Source: a phage. Taken from it: a stretch of 42,515 bases of DNA. The notes beneath the pieces were generated by a model. The model did no database searches, was not told the origin of the DNA, and saw nothing but the letters and a program-made list of their open reading frames with translations. The DNA lies in the sequence record PP754824.1; one strand, written 5' to 3'. The first letter of the stretch is position 1. Every line of letters starts with the position of its first letter. This document shows positions 1-37,081 of the stretch, piece by piece. The translations under genes and the position numbers were made by a program.

Positions 1-381
1 AGAACGTCCCACTTTAGCGGCAACAACGCCACTTTCATTTACGAAAACCTTGTCACCAAATGCCGGAGCAGCTGCAAGAGTAGTGCGAACCCAAATACGA
101 CCAGAAGTCATTACGTTAACTGCCTCAAGGCCGCGAGCCTGACCATCTGGAGTCTCATAATGAGATTTAACAACAACGCCGTAAGGTTTAATTGCAGTTC
201 CTGATATAGCCGGAAGGGCAACAACCTTGTGACCATCTACTGGCTGAGCGGTGCTAACACCTACGAATGTTCCAACCGGGATTCTAGTGGCAGCAGTACC
301 ACCAACTACACAAGCACCATCGATATTATACAGGGAAGTATCAGCTACCATACCTGCCAGAGCTACAGAACGAATTGCCAT
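1..381 (-). CDS. 5' portion of a ~165-aa structural gene that wraps across the window ends (continues at 42275..42515); candidate head decoration protein by position
   Basis: ATG at 381 preceded by GGAG RBS; reading frame is open to position 1 and continues in the identical sequence at the window end; sits between protease/scaffold and major capsid genes as gpD does in lambda. Confidence 0.5.
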   Translation of the reverse strand, partial: MAIRSVALAGMVADTSLYNIDGACVVGGTAATRIPVGTFVGVSTAQPVDGHKVVALPAISGTAIKPYGVVVKSHYETPDGQARGLEAVNVMTSGRIWVRTTLAAAPAFGDKVFVNESGVVAAKVGRS

Positions 382-392
382 TATCTATCTCC

Positions 393-1505
393 TTACTTTT
401 TAATTTTAGCCAGACGAGCACGTGGGTCTAATTTCTTAGGTTCGTCAGCTTTGTCAGATTTGTCGGAAGCTACGGTAGCTTTACGAACTTCAGCCATTTT
501 ATCAGAATCCTTGGCAATGTCGAACGCTGCGTCGATGTATGCGTCGGATTTATCAGCAACATCAAGGCCGGAAACTTCTTTAACGTAAGCTACTTTTATG
601 CCTTTAGCATCCAGACCATCAGTCTTAATTCCAACCTCTGCGGCTACAGTAACCAGAGCGGCAAGTGCTTCAGCGTCGGCTTTAGCAGCTTTAACGGCTT
701 TCTCGATTTCAGCAGGCATCGCGTCTACTTTAGCCTTCAGCGCATCACGCTCAGCTTCAATGCAGTCGGCTTTGGTTTTAGCGTCAACTGCATCTTTTTT
801 AATAGCTTCAATGTGTGCGGCAACTTCTGGAGAGATTTCGAACTCCTGGGCGCCATCCAGTTTAATCTTAACCATTTCTTTAACATCCTCTTTAATAGAA
901 TCAACGCTGTCAGTATACGGGTTTTCCTGTTCTGCGTCCATATTCAATTTTGCAACACCTGCGCGACCTTTGTATACCATTGCAACGTGATTAACAATAA
1001 TGTTAGTTTGCAGTGCATCAAAACGAACCCAGTCAGGTGGAATTTCATCTTGGGACTCGTAATCACCATCCAACTTGTATTCACCAGTCTCATTACTCCC
1101 CCAACCTGGAGACTCAACATCAACAGTCGAGTAGCCTACAGATAACTCGGCGGCAATGCCAGATTTAGCTTTCTCGATTGATTCCTTGTCGTAAACGGTT
1201 AGTGGAACTACCACGTTCGAATCCTGACGCATTGCTGAGCCAGACACTGAGCCTACAACTACCTGCTTGGCATTATCAACGTTAACAAACACGTGGCCTA
1301 AGGTAATCGGCTTGCCCTGATAACTTGCAAGAGAATCAGCTTTAAAGACCTCTGAAGCTGGCCTAAATTCGCGTCGTTCCGAGCCATCTGGCAGGTAGTA
1401 TGATTGCACGCCTACGCGAGCAACCACAGGTGTATCTACCAGGAATCCGTTTTCGTCAAATCGCGCTTTAACTTTTGCACTGTCATAACGAATTTTAGCT
1501 TTCAA
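393..1505 (-). CDS. prohead protease / scaffolding-like head morphogenesis protein (370 aa)
   Basis: Position directly downstream of portal; Ala/Lys/Glu/Asp-rich coiled-coil-like C-terminal half typical of scaffold proteins; family assignment is tentative. Confidence 0.5.
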   Translation of the reverse strand: MKAKIRYDSAKVKARFDENGFLVDTPVVARVGVQSYYLPDGSERREFRPASEVFKADSLASYQGKPITLGHVFVNVDNAKQVVVGSVSGSAMRQDSNVVVPLTVYDKESIEKAKSGIAAELSVGYSTVDVESPGWGSNETGEYKLDGDYESQDEIPPDWVRFDALQTNIIVNHVAMVYKGRAGVAKLNMDAEQENPYTDSVDSIKEDVKEMVKIKLDGAQEFEISPEVAAHIEAIKKDAVDAKTKADCIEAERDALKAKVDAMPAEIEKAVKAAKADAEALAALVTVAAEVGIKTDGLDAKGIKVAYVKEVSGLDVADKSDAYIDAAFDIAKDSDKMAEVRKATVASDKSDKADEPKKLDPRARLAKIKK

Positions 1506-2796
1506 TTACAATCTCCTCTTTTGGTGATTCTTCTTGTGCGGGCTGCTCAGTTACAATCGAACCTTCACCAATCTTAACCTCAGGGGCTAATGCGCGCAAG
1601 GTATCTCGTGCTTCATCTGCGTCCATTACTCCGTTAGTGATGAGAGTGGCGATTGAATCAACGTTATTCTTCAGTATTTCAGCGCGGTCCTTCTTCGATT
1701 CCTGAGCTAGCGGATTAAACTCAACTGACCATTCCTGCTCGGTTGTGATGAACGGGATTAAAAAACCAAGAACAGGGAGTAATTCTTCATTTCTCTTGCG
1801 GTCGATTAGTTTATGGAATGTCTCCAATGCTGTGTTTTGGCTTGATGACAAACCACCAACGTTACGGCCTTTGAGGATGATTTCATGAATACCACTCAGA
1901 GCAACAATCCTGTCGAATTTCTTATCCAGGAATCCATCAATCCCACCAATATCCGAGTTCAGAACACTGTACTCTTCAGACTCTGCATCAATACCAATCG
2001 CGCGACCAACGCCGGAATTATCATCAACCTGAGCCAGCCTTAACCTTGCCGCACCAAAACCTTCTGCGTCGTCACACAATTCAGCAAGCCCCTTCGCCTT
2101 CCATACCGCCTGTTGCTTACGGCGCAATAACTGGGTTGCCAGTTTCTCGCACGTCTGATAATCCTTGATTGCCTCCAGTAGGTCAGGAACCAGAACGCTA
2201 GCACCCCACCCATCATTGCCGAGACGCAATGAGCTAGGAATCTTCTCTCCATCCATAATGTGAACTCGAGAGTAATGCACATCATAAAACGTGGAGCTAC
2301 CTTCAGGTGTTATGCGGTACGTTAGTGGTTTTCCAAATCGAACATTGCGAGGATTCTCCTCCTTCGCTTGCACCCTCACCTGACTGCGATCGTATACTCG
2401 AAGCGATTCAAGTTCAGCACCTTCACGTACCGGACTAGTTAGCGCACGATTATCCTTAACGATAGCCACAATAGCTGAGCCGCCGAACAACCTCGCCCAT
2501 GACCATGCGTCAGAGATTGACTCGTTGACCTTTAGGTAATCCCACCTTGACCAGAATTCACCCTCGTTATCAATGCCATCAATATGGAAACCTGCGGCGA
2601 TTGCTGTCTCTGGGATGGTATCGACGATGCGGCGAACCAGTGAGTTAGACACGTAAAGTGAATCGGCGAATGGTGGCGCAAGGTAAGTGTTGCCGAATTG
2701 CCCGTAAATCTCGCTACCATCACTAGTTCCACCCAGGAACTGCGTGGCGTATGAATCTGCTTTTACCATTTTCTTGCTCCAATAAAAAAGCCCCAT
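1495..2796 (-). CDS. portal protein (433 aa)
   Basis: Size and position immediately downstream of terminase large subunit; start overlaps upstream gene end. Confidence 0.7.
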   Translation of the reverse strand: MGLFYWSKKMVKADSYATQFLGGTSDGSEIYGQFGNTYLAPPFADSLYVSNSLVRRIVDTIPETAIAAGFHIDGIDNEGEFWSRWDYLKVNESISDAWSWARLFGGSAIVAIVKDNRALTSPVREGAELESLRVYDRSQVRVQAKEENPRNVRFGKPLTYRITPEGSSTFYDVHYSRVHIMDGEKIPSSLRLGNDGWGASVLVPDLLEAIKDYQTCEKLATQLLRRKQQAVWKAKGLAELCDDAEGFGAARLRLAQVDDNSGVGRAIGIDAESEEYSVLNSDIGGIDGFLDKKFDRIVALSGIHEIILKGRNVGGLSSSQNTALETFHKLIDRKRNEELLPVLGFLIPFITTEQEWSVEFNPLAQESKKDRAEILKNNVDSIATLITNGVMDADEARDTLRALAPEVKIGEGSIVTEQPAQEESPKEEIVIES

Positions 2797-2818
2797 TTAA
2801 GAGGCTAGTTTATCACGC

Positions 2819-4392: not shown

Positions 4393-4899
4393 TTACGCTC
4401 TCGTATTTAGGTAGCCTTTATTTTCAGAGCCATGATTTTCATGATATCCGTTCAATTTGTCATACTGCGACCTTGCCAATGCAGCCTCCTCTATAGTGTC
4501 CTTGTAGCATATGAAGACTGTTTTACCAAACTCTCTAGCCTGAACAAGCCATCTATTCTCTCTTTTGCACCAGCTTACACCGTTTATTCCGCTTTTATTT
4601 CTTGATGATAGTGATCTGTTATTTGAGTTCTCTTTATTGCTTACTAACCTTAAGTTCTCTATTCTATTGTCACTTCTATTTTGGTTTATGTGATCTATGT
4701 ACATGCCTTTAGGGATTGCTCCATTGTGCATCTCCCACACCACCCTGTGACACCTGTATGCTTTTTGTCTATACTTTAGTATCACATAGCCAAATTTATC
4801 AACTCTTCCGGCCACCTCTCCAACCTTTGATACATTTGCTACTTTTACCTTTCTTATTAAAAGCCCGTCTCTATATTCAAAAATATCATGCCAATTCAT
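4393..4899 (-). CDS. HNH homing endonuclease (HNH_3 + AP2-like domain)
   Basis: IDHINQNRSDNRIENLRLVS HNH motif followed by SGINGVSWCKRENRW AP2-like segment; N-terminus MNWHDIFEYRDGLL is paralogous to 33191..33661; inserted between terS and terL. Confidence 0.85.
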   Translation of the reverse strand: MNWHDIFEYRDGLLIRKVKVANVSKVGEVAGRVDKFGYVILKYRQKAYRCHRVVWEMHNGAIPKGMYIDHINQNRSDNRIENLRLVSNKENSNNRSLSSRNKSGINGVSWCKRENRWLVQAREFGKTVFICYKDTIEEAALARSQYDKLNGYHENHGSENKGYLNTRA

Positions 4900-4927: not shown

Positions 4928-4970
4928 ATTATCTCATTGATTGGGCCTCTTCTTTTAACAAAAAGTGCTA
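4928..4970 (-). promoter_or_regulatory. conserved promoter box, variant TAGCACTTTTTGTTAA, 22-nt spacer, -10 GATAAT
   Basis: Member of the repeated box family; the -10 lies inside an inverted repeat GGGCCCA..TGGGCC; about 30 nt upstream of the HNH start. Confidence 0.5.
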
Positions 4971-5492
4971 CAGCTTACTAATCACAGACTCCAGCGCTTC
5001 CTTCATCGTGCCAACGTCGTTAGCTGAAGAGTTATTGCTTATAGTAATCTCCTGCGGCTTATCGATGCCAAGTTCTTTGGAAATCATGCCAGGGTTAACA
5101 ATGCCAGACGCTGCCAGCTGATACTTCTGCTCGCGAATCACGGAATCAATGAATGCAATTACCTCGTCATAACCCGCCGACTTCCTCCATTTCTCTATTG
5201 CGCTATGGGTAACACCGCAGTAAAGGCAGAATCCTGTTAGTGTGAAGACTCGTGGCTTGTGCACCAGATTCTCGGTTACGACACCCTGGAAGCTGGCTGT
5301 CTCAATTGCCTTGATTGCCTGGCTCTCAGCCCATGAGAAGTATTTCACGGCCAGGTCGAATAGCTGCTCTGGGGTCATTATTCGGTTTTTGGACAGAGTT
5401 GTAATGTCAGAATACTTTTTGTTGTACATGGCTTTGAAGTTGCCAGAGCGAATCTTTTCTTGCGCCTGGCTGGTGAAGTTTTCGTCTTTCAT
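4968..5492 (-). CDS. putative terminase small subunit (174 aa)
   Basis: First gene after the early/late terminator and immediately upstream (HNH insertion apart) of terL; assignment by position and size. Confidence 0.5.
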   Translation of the reverse strand: MKDENFTSQAQEKIRSGNFKAMYNKKYSDITTLSKNRIMTPEQLFDLAVKYFSWAESQAIKAIETASFQGVVTENLVHKPRVFTLTGFCLYCGVTHSAIEKWRKSAGYDEVIAFIDSVIREQKYQLAASGIVNPGMISKELGIDKPQEITISNNSSANDVGTMKEALESVISKL

Positions 5493-5813: not shown

Positions 5814-5889
5814 TGGTGTTCCGCGCTGGACTCGAACCAGCAACTAAGACTTAGGAGGTCTTTGCGTTATCCTGTTACGCCAGCAGAAC
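5814..5889 (-). tRNA. tRNA-Arg (anticodon CCU), CCA encoded
   Basis: Hand-folded cloverleaf on the minus strand: 7-bp acceptor stem GTTCTGC/GCGGAAC (one G-U), D-arm GCGT/ACGC, anticodon stem AAGAC/GTCTT with loop CTCCTAA, T-arm GCTGG-TTCGAGT-CCAGC, discriminator A, CCA. Confidence 0.8.
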
Positions 5890-7500: not shown

Positions 7501-7548
7501 ATTATGCCGGATTTCTCCGGCGATTGTTTAGCAATTCGTGCTATTGTC
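7501..7548 (-). promoter_or_regulatory. conserved promoter box (AATAGCACGAATTGCTAAACAATCGCC), 22-nt spacer, -10 CATAAT
   Basis: Canonical box copy; TAG stop of 7541..7879 lies inside the box; spacer hairpin CCGGAGAAATCCGG. Confidence 0.6.
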
Positions 7549-7879
7549 CATTCAGGAGTAATTTAGCTTCCCGATAAAACTCCATCGCCGCCTCAACCTC
7601 TTCCTCGCTGTACCGCAAGTGGTATGGTAGTCTACTAGGATGCTCACCTTCGTATACTTTGAAGTTAGGTTCCCAACACTCATCAAGGATTGCAGGGTGA
7701 ACATAAATCTTATCACCAATCATGCAGACGAGATTCATCTTCTCTAGGTCTGGGATAAGTCCCTCCTGAAGCCTCGCCGTTAGTCTGACATTACGTGAAT
7801 CAACTGGTTTTGATTTCCTGAGGCCTTCGTATAATGACCTAACACCAAGCACCCCTTTCCCGTTTCTTCCCATTTTCAT
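7541..7879 (-). CDS. stand-alone paralogue of the C-terminal domain of the 527-aa P-loop protein (112 aa)
   Basis: NGKGVLGVRSLYE...MIGDKIYVHP aligns with NGKGVVGVRSLYE...LIGDKIYINP at the C-terminus of 10672..12255. Confidence 0.6.
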   Translation of the reverse strand: MKMGRNGKGVLGVRSLYEGLRKSKPVDSRNVRLTARLQEGLIPDLEKMNLVCMIGDKIYVHPAILDECWEPNFKVYEGEHPSRLPYHLRYSEEEVEAAMEFYREAKLLLNGQ

Positions 7880-7966: not shown

Positions 7967-8074
7967 TCAGTTATTACTGATTGCCACGCGAAGAATTGAG
8001 TAACCATCACGCTGCGCAATTCTTACGATTTCCTCGCCACTTAGCTTCACATCATTGAAATCAAACATTCCCAT
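7967..8074 (-). pseudogene. short ORF (35 aa) paralogous to the N-terminus of the 527-aa P-loop protein; probable remnant of an internally deleted gene copy
   Basis: MGMFDFNDVKLSGEEIVRIAQRDGYSILRVAISNN versus MFDFNEDKLSVEQVMAIAATDNLPPLRVAINAN; followed about 85 nt later by the C-terminal-domain paralogue. Confidence 0.45.
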
Positions 8075-8592
8075 TATTTGGTCTCCTTGATAAGTTCCTG
8101 GTAAGCGGTTAGTGCGAACATTGCGCCATTAAGCTCCTCGCCTTTCAGGTGGATTACGCTCGGAGTAACTGCAAGAAGTCGCTTCTTGAACTTCTCAATG
8201 ATAGCCGCCTCCCTCTCTTCCCCTGCTTTGCTTCGTGAGCCATGATTGATTGCACCAGGAACAAGCGAGATTACCGCAGAACGAACCTCCTCACCATTAA
8301 ACTCCATATCCTTTATCGAGAACATGGACCTGACGTTTGCAGCCTTAATTTCAGGCATGCGACTTACTGTGTTTGAAACGTATGAGGACTTCAGCTTATT
8401 GAGATTGTACTTACCATCCGGCTTAAGGTCTTCATCATAAACCTTGCTAATTTCCTCCTTGCTAAGCCCGTACACCTGGCGAACAATCATACGCACTGGT
8501 ACTGCAAATGATTTCGTGTCGCTATTTAAAGCCTGAGTCGCCATGTAGCGAACTACTTCACCAAGACTTACTGCTTCTTTACGTTCTGACAT
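8074..8592 (-). CDS. hypothetical early protein (172 aa)
   Basis: ORF track; first gene of the leftward early unit. Confidence 0.55.
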   Translation of the reverse strand: MSERKEAVSLGEVVRYMATQALNSDTKSFAVPVRMIVRQVYGLSKEEISKVYDEDLKPDGKYNLNKLKSSYVSNTVSRMPEIKAANVRSMFSIKDMEFNGEEVRSAVISLVPGAINHGSRSKAGEEREAAIIEKFKKRLLAVTPSVIHLKGEELNGAMFALTAYQELIKETK

Positions 8593-8634
8593 TCTTATTA
8601 CTCCTGATTGGTTGCTCTTCGTTAAGATGCATCC

Positions 8635-8662
8635 ATAGTATCACACATCTACATGTTATCAA
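8635..8662 (-). promoter_or_regulatory. candidate sigma70-type early leftward promoter (-35 TTGATA, 16-nt spacer, -10 TACTAT)
   Basis: Read on the minus strand about 40 nt upstream of the 8592 start; overlaps three spaced TGTTATC repeats. Confidence 0.4.
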
Positions 8663-8845
8663 GTGTTATCTCATGTTATTTTCAGCCAGATACGCCAAAC
8701 CACTCTGAGAGCCGCGCCAGAAGCGGTGTAAATGTCGTGTGTATGAATTTCCGCGGAAATGTCGGGGGTATACCTATATATATTAATATAGATAAATATA
8801 GTCATTTTCATAAAAAACTATCGACCCTCCCCATATGACAGATAT

Positions 8846-8950
8846 ACAAGATATACATATATATAATAATAATAATAATAATAAAGTAAAAGGTTGATAT
8901 ATATAGATATTATTATGTAACCATTGCGTAATTGCGCGTTATAGGCGTAC
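8846..8950. repeat. AT-rich ~100-bp element, copy A, with (TAA)n microsatellite
   Basis: Near-identical to 24310..24420: shared GATATACA, (ATA/TAA)n, AGTAAAAGGTTGATATATATAGATATT, ATGTAACCA, TGCGTAA. Confidence 0.7.
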
Positions 8951-9111
8951 AGCATTCCTACGGAGGGTGGGTGCATCTACACAACATAACTTCGGTAACG
9001 TGTACATCCAAAATGGCTCAGCCAGAATCAAAATCAACTTGTATGGTAGTCCTTCCTCTATTCATTCACTCCAACACAAATAATTGCTAAATTCGCAACA
9101 ATCAAAAAAAT

Positions 9112-9180
9112 CATTGCATCAGATGCAATATTGCTATATGTGCAATAATGAGATGAATCATTGCAATAACTGCAATAATA
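9112..9180. repeat. iteron-like cluster of five TGCAAT(A) repeats including palindrome ATTGCATCAGATGCAAT
   Basis: Direct reading of the non-coding region just upstream of the rightward early promoter. Confidence 0.5.
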
Positions 9181-9193
9181 CATAAACCCAACG

Positions 9194-9239
9194 AATAGCA
9201 CTTTTTGCTAATGACAAACATTGGTAACGAGACCATAAT
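9194..9239 (+). promoter_or_regulatory. conserved promoter box (AATAGCACTTTTTGCTAA), about 22-nt spacer, -10 CATAAT
   Basis: Plus-strand copy ahead of the rightward early genes; leader CATCAACAACGAGGAGAGAGAT precedes the ATG at 9267. Confidence 0.55.
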
Positions 9240-9266
9240 GAATCCATCAACAACGAGGAGAGAGAT

Positions 9267-9464
9267 ATGAAACTTAAAGACGAAGCGTATGAGCAGCTAA
9301 AGCAGGAATGCGCTCTGATTGGGTTGAACGAGATGTACAGCGATATGGTTTTGCGCGGCAAGATTGATATTGACCTCGCTAAGCAATTCCAGTCAGATGA
9401 TGAGTATCTATGTTGTGATGGCTTGGGCTGTGACGAATGTTTACCCTGGCAAGGAATGAGATGA
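9267..9464 (+). CDS. hypothetical early protein (65 aa, Cys-rich C-terminus)
   Basis: ORF track; RBS GAGGAG. Confidence 0.5.
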   Translation: MKLKDEAYEQLKQECALIGLNEMYSDMVLRGKIDIDLAKQFQSDDEYLCCDGLGCDECLPWQGMR

Positions 9465-9655
9465 TGAAAGTTAAGTGCTTAAATAATCTTAATGATGGAA
9501 CCTGGGAATTTAGAAACGGAAAGCATTACATTTATGATGAAATTTATGGTTACGTAGTTGGTGACAACTTCAAACCAGTTTACTGCTACATTGATGATGG
9601 ACGTGTCATTGCAGCAATTAAAAATAGGCTTATTTTTGAAACAGTAGAAGGTTAG
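9461..9655 (+). CDS. hypothetical early protein (start trimmed to the ATGA overlap)
   Basis: ORF track 9437..9655; ATG at 9461 overlaps the upstream TGA stop. Confidence 0.45.
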   Translation: MMKVKCLNNLNDGTWEFRNGKHYIYDEIYGYVVGDNFKPVYCYIDDGRVIAAIKNRLIFETVEG

Positions 9656-10671: not shown

Positions 10672-12255
10672 ATGTTTGATTTCAACGAAGATAAACTATC
10701 TGTTGAACAAGTTATGGCGATTGCCGCGACCGACAACCTCCCACCGCTTCGCGTGGCCATTAATGCAAATGGCTATCGGCAGTCTCAATCATTCTGGAAA
10801 ACACCTGTGGAGATTGACGCAGGTAATGACAAGTACCCTGTAATATCTCTAGGCAATGACATTGATGTTGTTGGTAAGCTCTCGGCAAATATTGCTCGCT
10901 CAGTTCAGTTCCCAGAGTCATCAGCATACATGCACTTTTTGGGTTGTGTGTCCGCTGCGATGCTAGGGCGCTTTACTGTTGAGTATCACGGAACCCAGCA
11001 GCCAACATCGCTTTACGTGGTAACTAGCCAGCCGCCATCTACTGGTAAGTCAGCCATTAACTCTCTGTCAATTGCGCCAATGATTGCTGAGACTGAGCGT
11101 TTGAACGAGGTGCGTAAACGTGACCGCAAAAAGATTATGGCTAAGCTGTCTGCGCTAGCAAAAGAAATGAAACAGGAGAAGTCACCATCTGAGATGGCTT
11201 CACTGTTTGAGGAGAAGGAAGATTTAGAGGAAAAGCTCGAGAAGCTGTGCGATATCGTATTCCCGGTCTCAGATACTACGCCAGAAGGTCTTGCACGAAT
11301 CAACAACCGCCAGGGTAACTTTGCGGTCATCTCGGATGAGGCAACAAGCGTCAACTCATTATTGGGCATGACATACGGTGATGGTTCCAAGAAAACGAAC
11401 AGCGAGCTTGTACTTAAAGCGTGGGATGCTGGTAACGTATCTATTGCCCGCGCTAACGCAGAAAACAACATGAGTTTCGTGGCAATGGGGTGCATCTCTG
11501 TAATTGCTCAGGATGAAACAATCAATGCGATTATGAATGCTGGTGCGCGTGGTATTGGTGTTTCCGAGCGTTTCCTTCTGGTGCGTGAAAAGTCATTTCT
11601 TGGAGACCGCGTGTTTGTTGATGAGAATGGCGATTCAACATACGAGGCTATTGATGATGGTCTTAAAGCAGACTATTTCCGTCTCGTTCATGAAATTATG
11701 AATGAAGTTGAAGTGAAACTGACAGTAAGTGCGTCATCCATGCGCTACCTTAACCGAGCTCGCCAGGAAATGGAACCGCATCTTGGTGATGGCGGTAAAT
11801 ATTCCCACACGATGTTACGTGGTGCTCTTGGTAAATTTGATAAGCAAGCAATCCGTATTGCCTCAGTATTGCACGTTATTCGCAACTGGTTCGCACCGGC
11901 GGGGTCGAGTCCGCAGAAATCAAGAGAGATTGAGCTTGAAACAATGCAAGAAGCGGTTATGATTTTCCACGAGTTAAGCAAGACTTATTTGTCGTCCGCT
12001 AGTGCTGCTGGTCATGCTGGTGATAATGCTGAAATGAATAAGCTGGTTGATATCCTGATTAAGCAAGGTAAGAATGGGAAGGGTGTTGTTGGCGTTCGCT
12101 CACTGTATGAAGCAGCACGCAAAGTTAAACCTTTTGAAGGACAGGCTGGCGTAATGACTCGCATCAAGGACCACTTGGTTCCTATGCTTGATGAGAAAAA
12201 CTATACATGCCTGATTGGTGATAAGATTTACATTAATCCGCGATTGTTGGGGTGA
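10672..12255 (+). CDS. P-loop NTPase, putative replication initiation/helicase-type protein (527 aa)
   Basis: Walker A-like QPPSTGKSA and Walker B-like AVISDEAT; N- and C-terminal segments have paralogues at 7541..8074. Confidence 0.55.
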   Translation: MFDFNEDKLSVEQVMAIAATDNLPPLRVAINANGYRQSQSFWKTPVEIDAGNDKYPVISLGNDIDVVGKLSANIARSVQFPESSAYMHFLGCVSAAMLGRFTVEYHGTQQPTSLYVVTSQPPSTGKSAINSLSIAPMIAETERLNEVRKRDRKKIMAKLSALAKEMKQEKSPSEMASLFEEKEDLEEKLEKLCDIVFPVSDTTPEGLARINNRQGNFAVISDEATSVNSLLGMTYGDGSKKTNSELVLKAWDAGNVSIARANAENNMSFVAMGCISVIAQDETINAIMNAGARGIGVSERFLLVREKSFLGDRVFVDENGDSTYEAIDDGLKADYFRLVHEIMNEVEVKLTVSASSMRYLNRARQEMEPHLGDGGKYSHTMLRGALGKFDKQAIRIASVLHVIRNWFAPAGSSPQKSREIELETMQEAVMIFHELSKTYLSSASAAGHAGDNAEMNKLVDILIKQGKNGKGVVGVRSLYEAARKVKPFEGQAGVMTRIKDHLVPMLDEKNYTCLIGDKIYINPRLLG

Positions 12256-18909: not shown

Positions 18910-19392
18910 ATGTGTGAAATCGACAAGCGAACTATTAACGGCAATAACGGAACCGTGCGCACAAAAGACAAAAAGCAACGCAAACGACCATCAGGCTACT
19001 ACGTATTGAAAGATGAGGTAAAGGCTGGGCTACGTGCTCGCCTGGAGATGGTTCTTGATTTCTACGGTACAAAGGCGAACATCGCAAAGCAGTTAAATGT
19101 GTCCAACCAAGCTGTATCGGAATGGTTTAACCGCGGTATGATTTCGGCTCGAGGGGCTCAGCGAGCACATAATGCGTACAAGCGAAATAAGGAGGGATTT
19201 CGAGCTACATTCTGCCGACCAGACCTGCAATTCGACGGAAACGGAAAACCGCTAACACTTCGATGCAAGAAGCGCCATATGCTTCGCGTAGTTACCGATG
19301 CAGAACTAGCAACAAAGCCACCCTGTCGACCATGGCGAAAGAATAAGATTGCCAACGAAGCCGCACGAAAAGCTAAAGAAAGATCTGAATGA
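18910..19392 (+). CDS. HTH DNA-binding protein (YdaS/Cro-like), putative transcriptional regulator (160 aa)
   Basis: GTKANIAKQLNVSNQAVSEWFNRGMIS resembles Cro/YdaS-type helix-turn-helix; basic flanks. Confidence 0.55.
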   Translation: MCEIDKRTINGNNGTVRTKDKKQRKRPSGYYVLKDEVKAGLRARLEMVLDFYGTKANIAKQLNVSNQAVSEWFNRGMISARGAQRAHNAYKRNKEGFRATFCRPDLQFDGNGKPLTLRCKKRHMLRVVTDAELATKPPCRPWRKNKIANEAARKAKERSE

Positions 19393-24013: not shown

Positions 24014-24235
24014 TTATATATCTCTCTGGTTGATTGCTTTCGATGAGGTAACTATATATTCAGCACCGTAACCAGTCCAATTGGTTTTGCCAATCGTTGA
24101 TTTAAGTTTACGCGTGAATCTTTGTAATTTCGTGTAGGCATTGGCACTAGTTACGCTTTTTGGCATCTCAAGCCAGCCATAGCTCAATGTAAACATCGTG
24201 TATATCGTGTATGCCGTTTCTCGCTGAGGGTGCAT
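24014..24235 (-). CDS. hypothetical protein (73 aa)
   Basis: ORF track. Confidence 0.45.
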   Translation of the reverse strand: MHPQRETAYTIYTMFTLSYGWLEMPKSVTSANAYTKLQRFTRKLKSTIGKTNWTGYGAEYIVTSSKAINQRDI

Positions 24236-24309
24236 TGGTATAGCTGCCGCGCAATACTGTATAAATACACATGATATTAAAATTATAACCGGAACACTCT
24301 ATAGAAGTA

Positions 24310-24420
24310 GTTACATGATATACACAGTAATATATATAATAATAATAATAAGAGTAAAAGGTTGATATATATAGATATTTTAATGTAACCAATGCGTAAA
24401 TTGGCGTAACAGCGCGTATA
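24310..24420. repeat. AT-rich ~100-bp element, copy B, with (TAA)n microsatellite
   Basis: Near-identical to 8846..8950; lies in the second divergent intergenic region. Confidence 0.7.
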
Positions 24421-24499
24421 TCATTTCCCGCGGATGAGATTGTATACATCGAGTTACATCGGTTACGTGTAACTGTGATTTATGGTGAAATTGTCGATA

Positions 24500-24544
24500 A
24501 ATAGCACGATTTGCTAAAGACAACTGGCTATCTTTAGGTATATT
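24500..24544 (+). promoter_or_regulatory. conserved promoter box (AATAGCACGATTTGCTAA), 22-nt spacer, -10 TATATT
   Basis: Plus-strand copy ahead of the 24625..26101 gene set. Confidence 0.55.
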
Positions 24545-24624
24545 TAGGCGCGTGGCGGCAATGGTGCTGTCAACTCCTCCTCAAATTGAGGAAAAGAACT
24601 TAGTTAACTCCTCAAATCTTAGGA

Positions 24625-36754: not shown

Positions 36755-37081
36755 CTATTTCTTGGCGTTCATCATATCTAAGGCTTTAGCCTCAAGTATT
36801 CTGATATCGTTAAGTACCATTTCTTCATCATCTATTTTATAGACTTTGAACAAGAATGGAAGGCAATTATAATCAAGGCCTGTGGCACCGCAAGCACCTA
36901 CTCGCCATTGTGTCGACATAGCACAGTACACATCCCAGCTTTGCATCATTGTTTCATCGAAGTGTAACTCTTCAGGCTCCTCACCTTCATAATCGGAACG
37001 TTTCATTCCGATAGCTTCGAGTTCGGCATCCGTTGGCGGTGACTGGTATTGTAAGTATACTGCGCGTTTTAGTTTTTTACT
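36755..37081 (-). CDS. tail assembly chaperone G-T, -1 frame extension (fusion made by programmed frameshift from 37069..37383)
   Basis: Reading the -1 frame from the A_AAA_AAC slippery heptamer runs without a stop into ORF 36755..37006. Confidence 0.65.
   Translation of the reverse strand, partial: SKKLKRAVYLQYQSPPTDAELEAIGMKRSDYEGEEPEELHFDETMMQSWDVYCAMSTQWRVGACGATGLDYNCLPFLFKVYKIDDEEMVLNDIRILEAKALDMMNAKK

What the first reader, a model, noticed from the sequence alone, without database searches (positions are those of the whole stretch)
8635..9180. Iteron-like repeats in the early control region
Three TGTTATC repeats spaced 11 bp apart overlap a sigma70-like leftward promoter at 8649..8675. 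Five TGCAAT(A) repeats including the palindrome ATTGCATCAGATGCAAT lie at 9112..9180 just upstream of the rightward promoter box. Such arrays are typical of operator sites or origin iterons.
Basis: seen in the sequence. Interest (0 to 1): 0.5.

Follow-up and report, generated by a model that had tools for sequence, protein, structure and literature searches.

The report
T1-like phage packaging-start repeat array
The repeats are real and strongly conserved, but the TGCAAT array lies beside the spot where relatives of this T1-like phage start cutting and packaging their DNA, so it is more likely part of the packaging start (pac) site than an operator or replication-origin iteron array.

Summary
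The window is a T1-like coliphage (Drexlerviridae, close to IME542/TR1/CY1). The finding lies in the 674-bp divergent intergenic region 8593-9266.

Both repeat sets exist and exceed chance, with corrections. The left set is TGTTATC, TGTTATC, TGTTATT at 10-bp (not 11-bp) spacing. It overlaps the -35 and upstream region of a conserved leftward sigma70 promoter.

The "TGCAAT repeats" are four 17-bp inverted repeats, ATTGCW-N5-WGCAAT, centred at 9091, 9121, 9138 and 9168. They form two tandem 47-bp units. Half-sites are more conserved than spacers across 12 phages of three subfamilies.

The array belongs to a cassette (about 9011-9216) that is the best-conserved non-coding DNA here. About 182 bp of it are absent from an otherwise homologous second intergenic region at 24.3 kb.

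Published PhageTerm termini of TR1, UDF157lw, MSK and SU57 map to window 9054, 9052, 9046 and 9028. The T1, Rtp and TLS records start in the same region.

Best reading (about 0.45): the array is the recognition or assembly platform of the pac site, with packaging running leftward. An operator array for the adjacent rightward promoter and origin iterons remain rivals. The binding protein was not identified.

The parts
8635..8662 (-). Leftward sigma70-type promoter PL: -35 TTGATA (8662-8657), 16-nt spacer, TG-extended -10 TACTAT (8640-8635). It drives the DUF7174 gene 8074..8592 and the leftward genes towards terS.
   Evidence: Consensus scan. The -35 TTGAYA and the -10 are retained in 12 related phages (alignment A1).
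8654..8680 (+). Three phased direct repeats, TGTTATC / TGTTATC / TGTTATT, with a 10-bp period. On the promoter strand they read GATAACA x3. They cover the -35 and about -40 to -56 of PL.
   Evidence: 1/5000 shuffles. A GT at 10-bp phasing is kept in all 12 phages. Both copies change together in TR2/DTL (GTAATC..GTAAT). Analogous repeats occur in T1 (GTGTTAATC x3) and TLS (TGTTCAC x2-3).
8840..9011 (.). AT-rich module: GATATACA repeats, (ATA)7 at 8863-8884, an IHF-consensus site at 8887-8899, three phased GCGT(A) repeats (8926, 8936, 8945), ending at CGGTAACGTGTAC. A second copy lies at about 24300-24480. It is origin-like or architectural and is not part of the TGCAAT array.
   Evidence: Conservation is 0.91 over 8853-8912. 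The duplicate is also found in P818 and TLS.
9028..9055 (-). Inferred pac cleavage zone, in the block CAAAATCAACTTGTATGGTAGTCC|TTCC. Packaging proceeds towards lower coordinates.
   Evidence: Termini transferred by alignment: TR1 3,615 -> 9054; UDF157lw record junction -> 9052|9053; MSK 36,862 -> 9046; SU57 record end -> 9028. Direction comes from the T1 repeat_region 1..2800, the TLS pac-HindIII/EcoRV fragments and the MSK 'forward' statement. It was not measured in this phage.
9083..9129 (.). 47-bp unit 1. Palindrome A is ATTGCTAAATTCGCAAC (9083-9099), followed by CAATCAAAAAAATC, then palindrome B ATTGCATCAGATGCAAT (9113-9129). A and B centres are 30 bp apart.
   Evidence: The same two-palindrome unit with 30-bp spacing and GCAACAATCA is present in T1 (positions 1-47) and in other Drexlerviridae contigs.
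9130..9176 (.). 47-bp unit 2, a tandem copy 74% identical to unit 1. Palindrome C is ATTGCTATATGTGCAAT (9130-9146) and palindrome D is ATTGCAATAACTGCAAT (9160-9176).
   Evidence: Half-site conservation is 0.94 against 0.81 for spacers over the four sites in 12 phages.
9195..9239 (+). Rightward promoter PR of the family 'DR' type. It has the inverted repeat ATAGCAC-TTT-TTGCTAA (9195-9211), -35-like ATGACA (9211-9216) and -10 CATAAT (9234-9239). It drives 9267..9464 and the operon leading to the DUF3987 helicase (10672..12255).
   Evidence: About 16 such elements occur in the window. The -10 lies 21 nt after the repeat in most of the 16 (20 or 22 in two; two lack a -10), which puts the repeat centre near -42. 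The TLS paper describes the repeat.

Best explanation
The TGCAAT array is the conserved recognition or assembly part of the phage's packaging-initiation (pac) region.

Shown:
- The array is four 17-bp inverted repeats inside a discrete cassette (about 9011-9216) of very conserved non-coding DNA.
- The cassette starts where relatives' virion DNA ends map (window 9028-9054). That is 29-55 bp to the left of the first palindrome.

Inferred:
- On concatemeric DNA, a dimer-type DNA-binding protein occupies the four sites. It could be the P22-gp3-like small terminase (4968..5492, - strand) or an accessory HTH protein that recruits it.
- The large terminase then cuts in the adjacent CAACTTGTATGGTAGTCC|TTCC block.
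- DNA is packaged leftward by the headful: through the AT-rich module and PL, then the small early genes, terS/terL and the structural genes.
- On this reading the array stays on the non-encapsidated side of the first cut, as pacL does in SPP1.

The TGTTATC x3 set is a separate element. It consists of phased sites on the -35/upstream region of the early leftward promoter PL. It is most simply an operator or modulator of that promoter.
For: (1) Identity. The region matches Drexlerviridae such as IME542 and TR1/TR2/CY1. All relatives have the same roughly 650-700-bp divergent intergenic region.

(2) Termini.
- The TR1 paper reports a PhageTerm headful packaging site at 3,615 bp. TR1 is colinear with the window without indels (3572 <-> 9011), so this maps to window 9054. 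The TerS of CY1, from the same TR1/TR2/CY1 group, is 100% identical to the window's.
- The UDF157lw record was re-cut at its PhageTerm terminus. Its junction aligns to 9052|9053.
- MSK's PhageTerm start at 36,862 (p 1.6e-9) aligns to 9046.
- SU57's PhageTerm and coverage-step end aligns to 9028.
- The T1 record carries its 2.8-kb terminal repeat from position 1, which aligns to 9129. Rtp position 1 is near 9135.
- TLS position 1 is the restriction-mapped pac end. HindIII at 5876 and EcoRV at 2733 fit the published 5,882-bp and 2.7-kb fragments.

(3) Cassette.
- Homology between this intergenic region and the second one (24.3 kb) ends at 9011. There the DR promoter follows after 25 nt. Here about 182 nt (cut block plus array) are intercalated.
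- Many phages share only 9010-9216 with the window.

(4) Binding-site signature.
- Half-sites are conserved at 0.94 against 0.81 for spacers.
- The enrichment is never reached in 5000 local shuffles.
- The A-30bp-B unit recurs in T1 and other lineages.

(5) AATCA occurs 5 times, all on one strand, in 9026-9160. This is the densest cluster in the window and it flanks the cut and the array.

(6) General knowledge, not tested here: characterised pac and cos sites (SPP1 pacL/pacC/pacR, P1 pac, lambda cosB) are arrays of repeated protein-binding sites within about 100-200 bp of the cut.
Against: - No binding protein was identified.
- The putative HTH helix of TerS differs strongly among phages with an identical array: window THSAIEKW, IME542 NINRFASW, P818 TSGAIQSW.
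- Dyad-symmetric 17-bp sites look more like sites for a Cro/repressor-type dimer than for a ring-shaped small terminase.
- The sites share geometry and most bases with the promoter repeat (TAGCA-N5-TGCTA against TTGCA-N5-TGCAA). This hints at a transcription-factor-type binder.
- The mapped cuts lie beside the array, not in it.
- TLS maps its pac end to the same place yet has no TTGCA palindromes. T1 has only two, plus other motifs.
- All termini come from other phages' papers and were transferred by alignment. None was measured for this sequence.
- Some record starts may simply copy the T1/Rtp convention.
Confidence: 0.45

Rival explanations
1. Operator array. The four palindromes bind a dimeric HTH regulator. 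This could be the Cro-like protein 18910..19392 or another early protein. The regulator would control the adjacent DR-type promoter PR (and, in T1, transcription across the region), for example by cooperative upstream binding or looping. Proximity to pac would be coincidental, or would serve to coordinate transcription with packaging.
For: - The 17-bp dyad symmetry has the same 5-N5-5 geometry as the promoter repeat.
- Some contigs carry hybrid sites such as GTTGCAAAAAGTGCAAT or ATTGCAATTTTTGCAAC.
- Half-sites are more conserved than spacers.
- A Cro-like regulator is encoded.
- In other Drexlerviridae the DR-proximal position carries lineage-specific repeats: TATTCC x2 plus GGAATAAT, TAGACCAATCGGTC x2, and TGTCA-N3-TGACA. 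This is typical of specificity-swapped operators.
Against: - Site centres lie at about -78, -108, -125 and -155 from the PR start and about 450-550 bp from PL. They overlap no core promoter.
- Position 3 of the half-site is invariably T here and invariably A in all roughly 16 promoter repeats. This argues for discrimination rather than one shared binder.
- The regulator's recognition helix varies (SNQ / TRQ / TPQ) among phages with identical arrays.
- The first gene behind PR differs among phages with the same array, so simple autoregulation is unlikely.
- The array is absent from the second, otherwise homologous promoter region.
Confidence: 0.25
2. Origin iterons. The TGCAAT palindromes, the TGTTATC repeats or both are initiator-binding sites of a replication origin. 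The binder would be the C-terminal domain of the DUF3987 helicase (10672..12255) or its 'mini-helicase' paralogue, with the neighbouring AT-rich block as the unwinding element.
For: - An AT-rich block with an IHF-consensus site lies 160-300 bp away.
- The helicase is the most conserved protein between the window and P818 (91%), as the array is the most conserved non-coding DNA.
- The helicase gene lies 1.4 kb downstream in the operon served by PR.
- A paralogue made of the helicase's N-terminal 42 and C-terminal ~70 residues, plus a tail of its own, is encoded on the other side.
- TLS has TGTTCAC(G) repeats resembling, from memory, the P4 type I iteron TGTTCACC, and the family encodes a P4-alpha-like primase (T1 annotation).
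Against: - The origin-like AT-rich/GCGTA module is duplicated at 24.3 kb without either repeat set.
- TLS has a helicase closer to the window's (72%) than T1's (57%) yet lacks TTGCA palindromes, while T1 has them.
- The helicase C-terminal domain is at least 90% identical among phages whose TGTTATC-position repeats differ.
- No DnaA boxes were found.
- The helicase C-terminal domain could not be shown to be a DNA-binding fold (model pLDDT 51.6; no PDB match).
Confidence: 0.15
3. No specific function. The block would be conserved only because it acts as a homology anchor for recombination between mosaic genomes, or through recent spread, with the repeats being products of tandem duplication.
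For: Sharp mosaic boundaries lie at about 9010 and about 9217. The 47-bp unit is a tandem duplication.
Against: - Conservation is position-specific, with half-sites more conserved than spacers.
- The A-30bp-B unit persists in T1 and other lineages where the flanks are unalignable.
- Conservation exceeds that of the neighbouring coding DNA.
Confidence: 0.05

Closest known systems
pac region of Bacillus phage SPP1 (pacL - pacC - pacR) and pac of coliphage P1 (from general knowledge, not tested here)
   Same: Both belong to headful phages. A defined first cut is flanked within about 30-130 bp by arrays of short repeated protein-binding sites. One array lies on the non-encapsidated side. An IHF-type site or bendable AT-rich DNA is nearby. 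Packaging is unidirectional.
   Different: The repeats here are 17-bp dyad-symmetric sites rather than direct boxes or hexamers. No GATC/Dam control is possible, because there is no GATC in the region. TerS is of the P22 gp3 type. Binding has not been demonstrated.
pac of Salmonella phage P22 / Sf6 (gp3-type small terminase)
   Same: TerS is homologous to P22 gp3 (E 4e-14 to PDB 3P9A). Packaging is headful from a preferred site.
   Different: From memory, the P22 pac is a single asymmetric 22-bp site inside the terS gene. Here the cut is about 3.5 kb from terS in an intergenic region. No P22-like pac sequence is found above chance.
pac ends of phages T1 and TLS
   Same: The genome position is the same: a divergent intergenic region with packaging running towards the terS side. 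T1 carries the same TTGCA-N5-TGCAA pair at positions 1-47.
   Different: The recognised sequence was never defined for T1 or TLS. The TLS authors proposed AGATTT by analogy with P22. The SU57 authors state that the pac site was not identified. TLS lacks the TTGCA palindromes.
21-nt intergenic repeat of T1-like phages (aaATAGCACnnnTTGnTAAAA; TLS paper, PMC11447400)
   Same: It has the same 5-N5-5 inverted-repeat geometry and 4 of 5 half-site bases. One copy (9195) abuts the array.
   Different: The TGCAAT sites have T instead of A at half-site position 3 in all eight half-sites. They have no -10 element 21 nt downstream. They occur only here, against about 16 promoter repeats spread over the genome.
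Lambda OR/OL operators and lambda ori iterons (general knowledge)
   Same: These are clustered 17-19-bp dyad-symmetric sites for a dimeric protein in a divergent control region.
   Different: The sites here do not overlap core promoters. No cognate repressor or initiator was identified. They are adjacent to a packaging cut.

Membership tests
pac site of a headful-packaging phage | Virion DNA ends of the first headful map to the site | tested here: inconclusive
   Not measurable for this sequence. Four relatives' published PhageTerm termini transfer to 9028-9054, 29-55 bp from the array. The T1, TLS and Rtp record starts fall in the same region.
pac site of a headful-packaging phage | Unique in the genome | tested here: met
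   ATTGCA-N5-TGCAAT at 1 mismatch or fewer occurs three times at 9113-9176 and once elsewhere (34202). The 9012-9194 segment has no second copy, whereas the flanking AT-rich module does.
pac site of a headful-packaging phage | Sequence-specific binding by the small terminase | not testable with these tools
   Indirect test only. The TerS putative HTH helix varies among phages with identical arrays, which does not favour direct reading by that helix.
pac site of a headful-packaging phage | Sufficient in cis for packaging or transduction of foreign DNA | not testable with these tools
   This needs a plasmid transduction assay.
operator array of a phage HTH regulator | Dyad-symmetric sites with conserved half-sites and free spacers | tested here: met
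   Four 17-bp sites. Half-site conservation is 0.94 against 0.81 for spacers in 12 phages.
operator array of a phage HTH regulator | Sites overlap or abut the core promoter they control | tested here: not met
   For the TGCAAT sites, centres are at about -78 to -155 of PR and about 450-550 bp from PL. The feature is met only by the TGTTATC repeats, which overlap the -35 of PL.
operator array of a phage HTH regulator | A cognate regulator whose specificity residues co-vary with the sites | tested here: inconclusive
   The Cro-like regulator 18910..19392 exists. Its recognition helix varies among phages with identical arrays, and no protein tracks the motif classes.
replication-origin iterons | Repeats directly adjoin an AT-rich unwinding element and host-factor sites | tested here: inconclusive
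   The AT-rich block with its IHF-consensus site lies between the two repeat sets, 90-160 bp from each. That block is duplicated at 24.3 kb without either repeat set. No DnaA box was found.
replication-origin iterons | An initiator with a DNA-binding domain matching the repeats | tested here: inconclusive
   The fold of the DUF3987 helicase C-terminal domain was not resolved (pLDDT 51.6; no PDB hit). Helicase relatedness does not follow presence of the palindromes.
Drexlerviridae 21-nt promoter repeat (DR) | ATAGCAC-N3-TTGnTAA followed by a -10 hexamer about 21 nt downstream, in the direction of transcription | tested here: not met
   The TGCAAT sites have T at half-site position 3 and no -10 at that distance. 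Only 9195-9211 is a DR.

The most novel reading that the evidence does not exclude
Packaging initiation in T1-like phages would be licensed by a transcription-factor-type dimer rather than by the small terminase alone. That dimer would be a relative, or an altered-specificity mode, of the Cro-like regulator that serves the roughly 16 DR promoters. It would bind four DR-like palindromes that differ from the promoter operator by one symmetric base. On this reading the same control region combines pac, a divergent early promoter pair, and one of two copies of an origin-like AT-rich module, which recalls P4 ori/crr.
Probability: 0.12. Interest if true: 0.65.

Novelty: new member of a known kind. 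Interest (0 to 1): 0.42.

Why it matters
T1-like phages are classic generalized transducers and notorious laboratory and fermentation contaminants. Even so, the sequence their terminase recognises has never been defined. The TLS authors guessed a hexamer by analogy with P22, and the SU57 authors state that the pac site was not found.

This analysis gives a discrete, unique cassette of about 200 bp next to the mapped cuts. It contains four defined palindromes and is conserved across several subfamilies. That makes a concrete, mutable candidate for the pac recognition site.

It would help in several ways:
- orienting and annotating Drexlerviridae genomes consistently;
- designing pac-plasmid transduction tools or packaging-defective phages;
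- separating pac from promoter and origin functions in this crowded control region.

Tried and rejected
- Rfam scan of 8300-9500: only sub-threshold noise. There is no ncRNA explanation.
- Promoters inside the array: none beyond chance (manual inspection).
- P22-like pac sequence in or near terS: no better than shuffles.
- DnaA boxes: none in the region.
- Co-variation of motif class with TerS, the Cro-like regulator or the helicase C-terminal domain, using T1, TLS and P818 genomes plus 126 IMG/VR loci: no protein tracks the motifs, and phylogeny confounds the comparison.
- Phyletic-pattern search for a T1 ORF specific to the TATTCC-motif class: nothing usable.
- PDB sequence searches for the helicase, regulator and primase: only a weak Cro hit for the regulator, plus P22 gp3 for TerS.
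- Single-sequence AlphaFold of the helicase C-terminal domain: pLDDT 51.6, so no fold search was run.
- The Rtp genome paper, and so its rationale for the record start, is not in the held library. The T1 genome paper was not looked up. What I recall of the Rtp abstract (Rtp52 regulator and 10 conserved inverted repeats) is from memory only.
- Host-factor ideas (CytR-like TTGCA half-sites, sigma54 -24/-12, Fur box) were considered by eye and dropped. The spacing or key bases do not fit.

Full report
**What the region is**

The window matches T1-like siphophages (Drexlerviridae, Braunvirinae/Christensenvirus). vB_EcoS_IME542 is 99% identical to the left of about 9219. TR1/TR2/TR3/CY1/Rao1 are 98-99% identical to the right of about 9010.

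The finding lies in a 674-bp intergenic region, 8593-9266.
- On the left is the leftward DUF7174 gene 8074..8592.
- On the right is a rightward 65-codon gene at 9267.
- The leftward unit runs through small genes to a P22-gp3-like small terminase (4968..5492).
- The rightward unit leads to a DUF3987 helicase (10672..12255).

Every relative inspected has the same 650-700-bp divergent gap.

**Observation check**

The left repeats are TGTTATC (8654), TGTTATC (8664) and TGTTATT (8674). The period is 10 bp, not 11.

The scan places the leftward promoter at TTGATA (8662-8657), a 16-nt spacer, and TG-extended TACTAT (8640-8635). The repeats therefore cover the -35 and the region up to about -56.

The right repeats are six TGCAAT/ATTGCA hexamers in 9113-9176. 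The whole window has 43 on both strands.

In 5000 dinucleotide-preserving shuffles of the intergenic region:
- the hexamer cluster of 6 was never reached (maximum 4);
- three ATTGCA-N5-TGCAAT sites were never reached (mean 0.009);
- a 6-mer repeated three times at 10-bp phasing arose once.

**Anatomy of the right array**

The hexamers pair into four 17-bp inverted repeats with a 5-nt spacer:
- A, 9083-9099, ATTGCTAAATTCGCAAC
- B, 9113-9129, ATTGCATCAGATGCAAT
- C, 9130-9146, ATTGCTATATGTGCAAT
- D, 9160-9176, ATTGCAATAACTGCAAT

They sit in two tandem 47-bp units (family D2).

In an alignment of 12 phages from Braunvirinae, Rogunavirinae and Nouzillyvirus, the stretch 9093-9212 is 90-97% conserved while the flanks fall to 50-75%. 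Half-site columns average 0.94 and spacer columns 0.81. That is the signature of sites read by a symmetric dimer.

**The neighbouring 'promoter box'**

ATAGCACTTTTTGCTAA at 9195 is one of about 16 copies of the 21-nt repeat described for TLS, T1 and Rtp. Its function is listed as an open question in the TLS paper.

In this window the -10 hexamer lies 21 nt downstream of the repeat in most of the 16 copies (20 or 22 nt in two; two lack a recognisable -10), followed by a conserved leader. The repeat centre therefore sits near -42. From general knowledge, this is the geometry of a class-II activator site.

A Cro-like HTH protein is encoded at 18910..19392. From memory of the Rtp abstract, which I could not verify because the paper is not held, its homologue Rtp52 was proposed to bind these repeats.

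The TGCAAT sites share the 5-N5-5 geometry. They differ at half-site position 3, which is T in all eight half-sites here and A in all promoter repeats.

**The turn: this is where packaging starts**

Record starts:
- The T1 record begins inside the homologous intergenic region and annotates its 2.8-kb terminal repeat from position 1.
- T1 positions 1-17 (GTTGCATGGTGTGCAAC) and 31-47 (GTTGCTTAGAATGCAAT) are the same palindrome pair with 30-bp spacing.
- Rtp position 1 corresponds to window ~9135.
- TLS position 1 is the restriction-mapped pac end. The first HindIII (5876) and EcoRV (2733) sites fit the published 5,882-bp and 2.7-kb pac fragments.

Sequencing-based termini from four papers transfer onto the window as follows:
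- TR1, 'packaging site at 3,615 bp' -> 9054
- UDF157lw, record re-cut by PhageTerm -> 9052|9053
- MSK, 36,862 with p 1.6e-9 -> 9046
- SU57, record end -> 9028

The direction is leftward in window coordinates. The evidence is the T1 terminal repeat, the TLS fragments and the MSK 'forward' statement, given that MSK matches the window on the minus strand. The cut zone therefore lies 29-55 bp left of palindrome A.

**A natural dissection**

A second large divergent intergenic region lies next to the recE-like exonuclease gene, at about 24014-24624. It carries a copy of the AT-rich module: 8845-8956 matches 24312-24425 at 82% (E 3e-26).

Homology runs from the GATATACA/(ATA)n block through an identical IHF-consensus 13-mer and three phased GCGT(A) repeats. 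It ends at CGGTAACGTGTAC (9011). In the second region the DR promoter follows 25 nt later. Here about 182 nt are intercalated, comprising the cut block, one-stranded AATCA repeats and the four palindromes.

The same coordinate (9009-9011) is a sharp homology boundary in many megablast hits, and about 9216-9219 is the other. P818 and TLS also have the duplicated module.

The origin-like features therefore belong to a duplicated module. The TGCAAT array belongs to the unique cassette that contains the cut.

**Who binds? Unresolved**

I compared TerS, the Cro-like regulator and the helicase C-terminal domain across T1, TLS, P818 and 126 IMG/VR loci.

Phages with identical arrays have different residues in the putative HTH helices:
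- TerS: THSAIEKW, NINRFASW, TSGAIQSW
- regulator: SNQAVSEW, TRQAVEEW, TPQAVEEW

The helicase C-terminal domain is at least 90% identical within this group. However, TLS has a helicase closer to the window's than T1's, yet TLS lacks the palindromes and T1 has them.

Other lineages carry different repeats at the DR-proximal position: TATTCC x2 plus GGAATAAT, TAGACCAATCGGTC x2, and TGTCA-N3-TGACA. The A-30bp-B unit is shared by this group, T1 and a third lineage. No T1 ORF follows the motif classes. The helicase C-terminal domain could not be modelled (pLDDT 51.6).

**The left repeats**

Across the 12 phages a GT at 10-bp phasing is retained. In TR2/DTL both copies change together (GTAATC...GTAAT).

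T1 has GTGTTAATC x3 at 9-bp spacing, and TLS has TGTTCAC(G) x2-3, on the same side of the region. Their distance to the leftward promoter differs between lineages.

Because they overlap the -35 here, regulation of PL is the simplest reading. An iteron reading is not excluded. From memory, TLS's version resembles the P4 type I iteron.

**Verdict**

- The operator/iteron interpretation is only partly supported.
- The best-supported explanation for the TGCAAT array is that it forms the recognition or assembly part of the pac region (confidence 0.45).
- The rivals are an upstream operator array for PR (0.25), origin iterons (0.15) and no specific function (0.05).
- It is a new, well-delimited example of a known kind of element, in a family whose pac sequence has not been defined.

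Noticed in passing
window 8840-9011 and 24300-24480: An AT-rich module occurs twice, 15.5 kb apart, in the two large divergent intergenic regions. It contains GATATACA repeats, (ATA)n, an identical IHF-consensus 13-mer TATCAACCTTTTA, and three phased GCGT(A) repeats. P818 and TLS also have the second copy next to the recE-like exonuclease gene. It may represent paired origins or architectural elements.
   Followed up: partly
window 7541..7879 and 7967..8074 (- strand), against 10672..12255 (+): A 'mini-helicase' paralogue (phrog_7327) consists of the N-terminal 42 and C-terminal ~70 residues of the DUF3987 helicase, plus a tail of its own and without the ATPase core. It is intact in JulesPiccard (179 aa) and P818 (188 aa). 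Here it is split into a 35-codon and a 112-codon ORF. It sits in inverted orientation on the other side of the control region.
   Followed up: partly
window 9195, 10005, 24501, 25726 (+); 4955, 6611, 7528, 14050, 16390, 18881, 20404, 22833, 33717, 37893, 41172 (-): About 16 copies of the family 21-nt repeat ATAGCAC-N3-TTGnTAA. Most are followed after 21 nt by a -10 hexamer and a conserved leader (CATCGAAACGA). The repeat centre lies near -42, which looks like activator-dependent promoters. One copy (18881) abuts the start of the Cro-like regulator gene, suggesting autoregulation.
   Followed up: partly
window ~9010 and ~9217: There are sharp mosaic boundaries. The window is IME542-like left of about 9219 and TR/CY1-like right of about 9010. 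Many other phages share only 9010-9216. The conserved cassette next to the pac cut may act as a recombination anchor.
   Followed up: partly
whole window: GATC is rare, with 48 sites in 42.5 kb and none in 8593-9266. No full-length Dam methylase homologue was seen. T1 and TLS carry over 200 methylated GATC sites, and GATC clusters lie next to their pac ends.
   Followed up: no
window 4393..4899 (- strand): An HNH endonuclease gene (Pfam HNH_3) is inserted between the large and small terminase genes.
   Followed up: no
window 9026-9160: AATCA occurs five times, all on the + strand and none on the - strand. This is the densest such cluster in the window, and it spans the cut zone and the array. 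T1 and TLS have CAATCA/AATCA runs at the same place.
   Followed up: partly
window 9028-9071: A 44-nt, 93% match occurs in the record of a 143-kb Enterococcus phage (PQ433353). That record is from the same submission series as coliphage vB_Ec-G8. It is probably cross-contamination of an assembly by T1-like phage DNA.
   Followed up: no
window 8730-8744 and 8757-8771: There are two copies of AAATGTCGnGnGTAT, 27 bp apart, just left of the AT-rich block. Other lineages have different short direct repeats at this position (GTTACCGAT, TTGCGGAA, GTTGAC).
   Followed up: no
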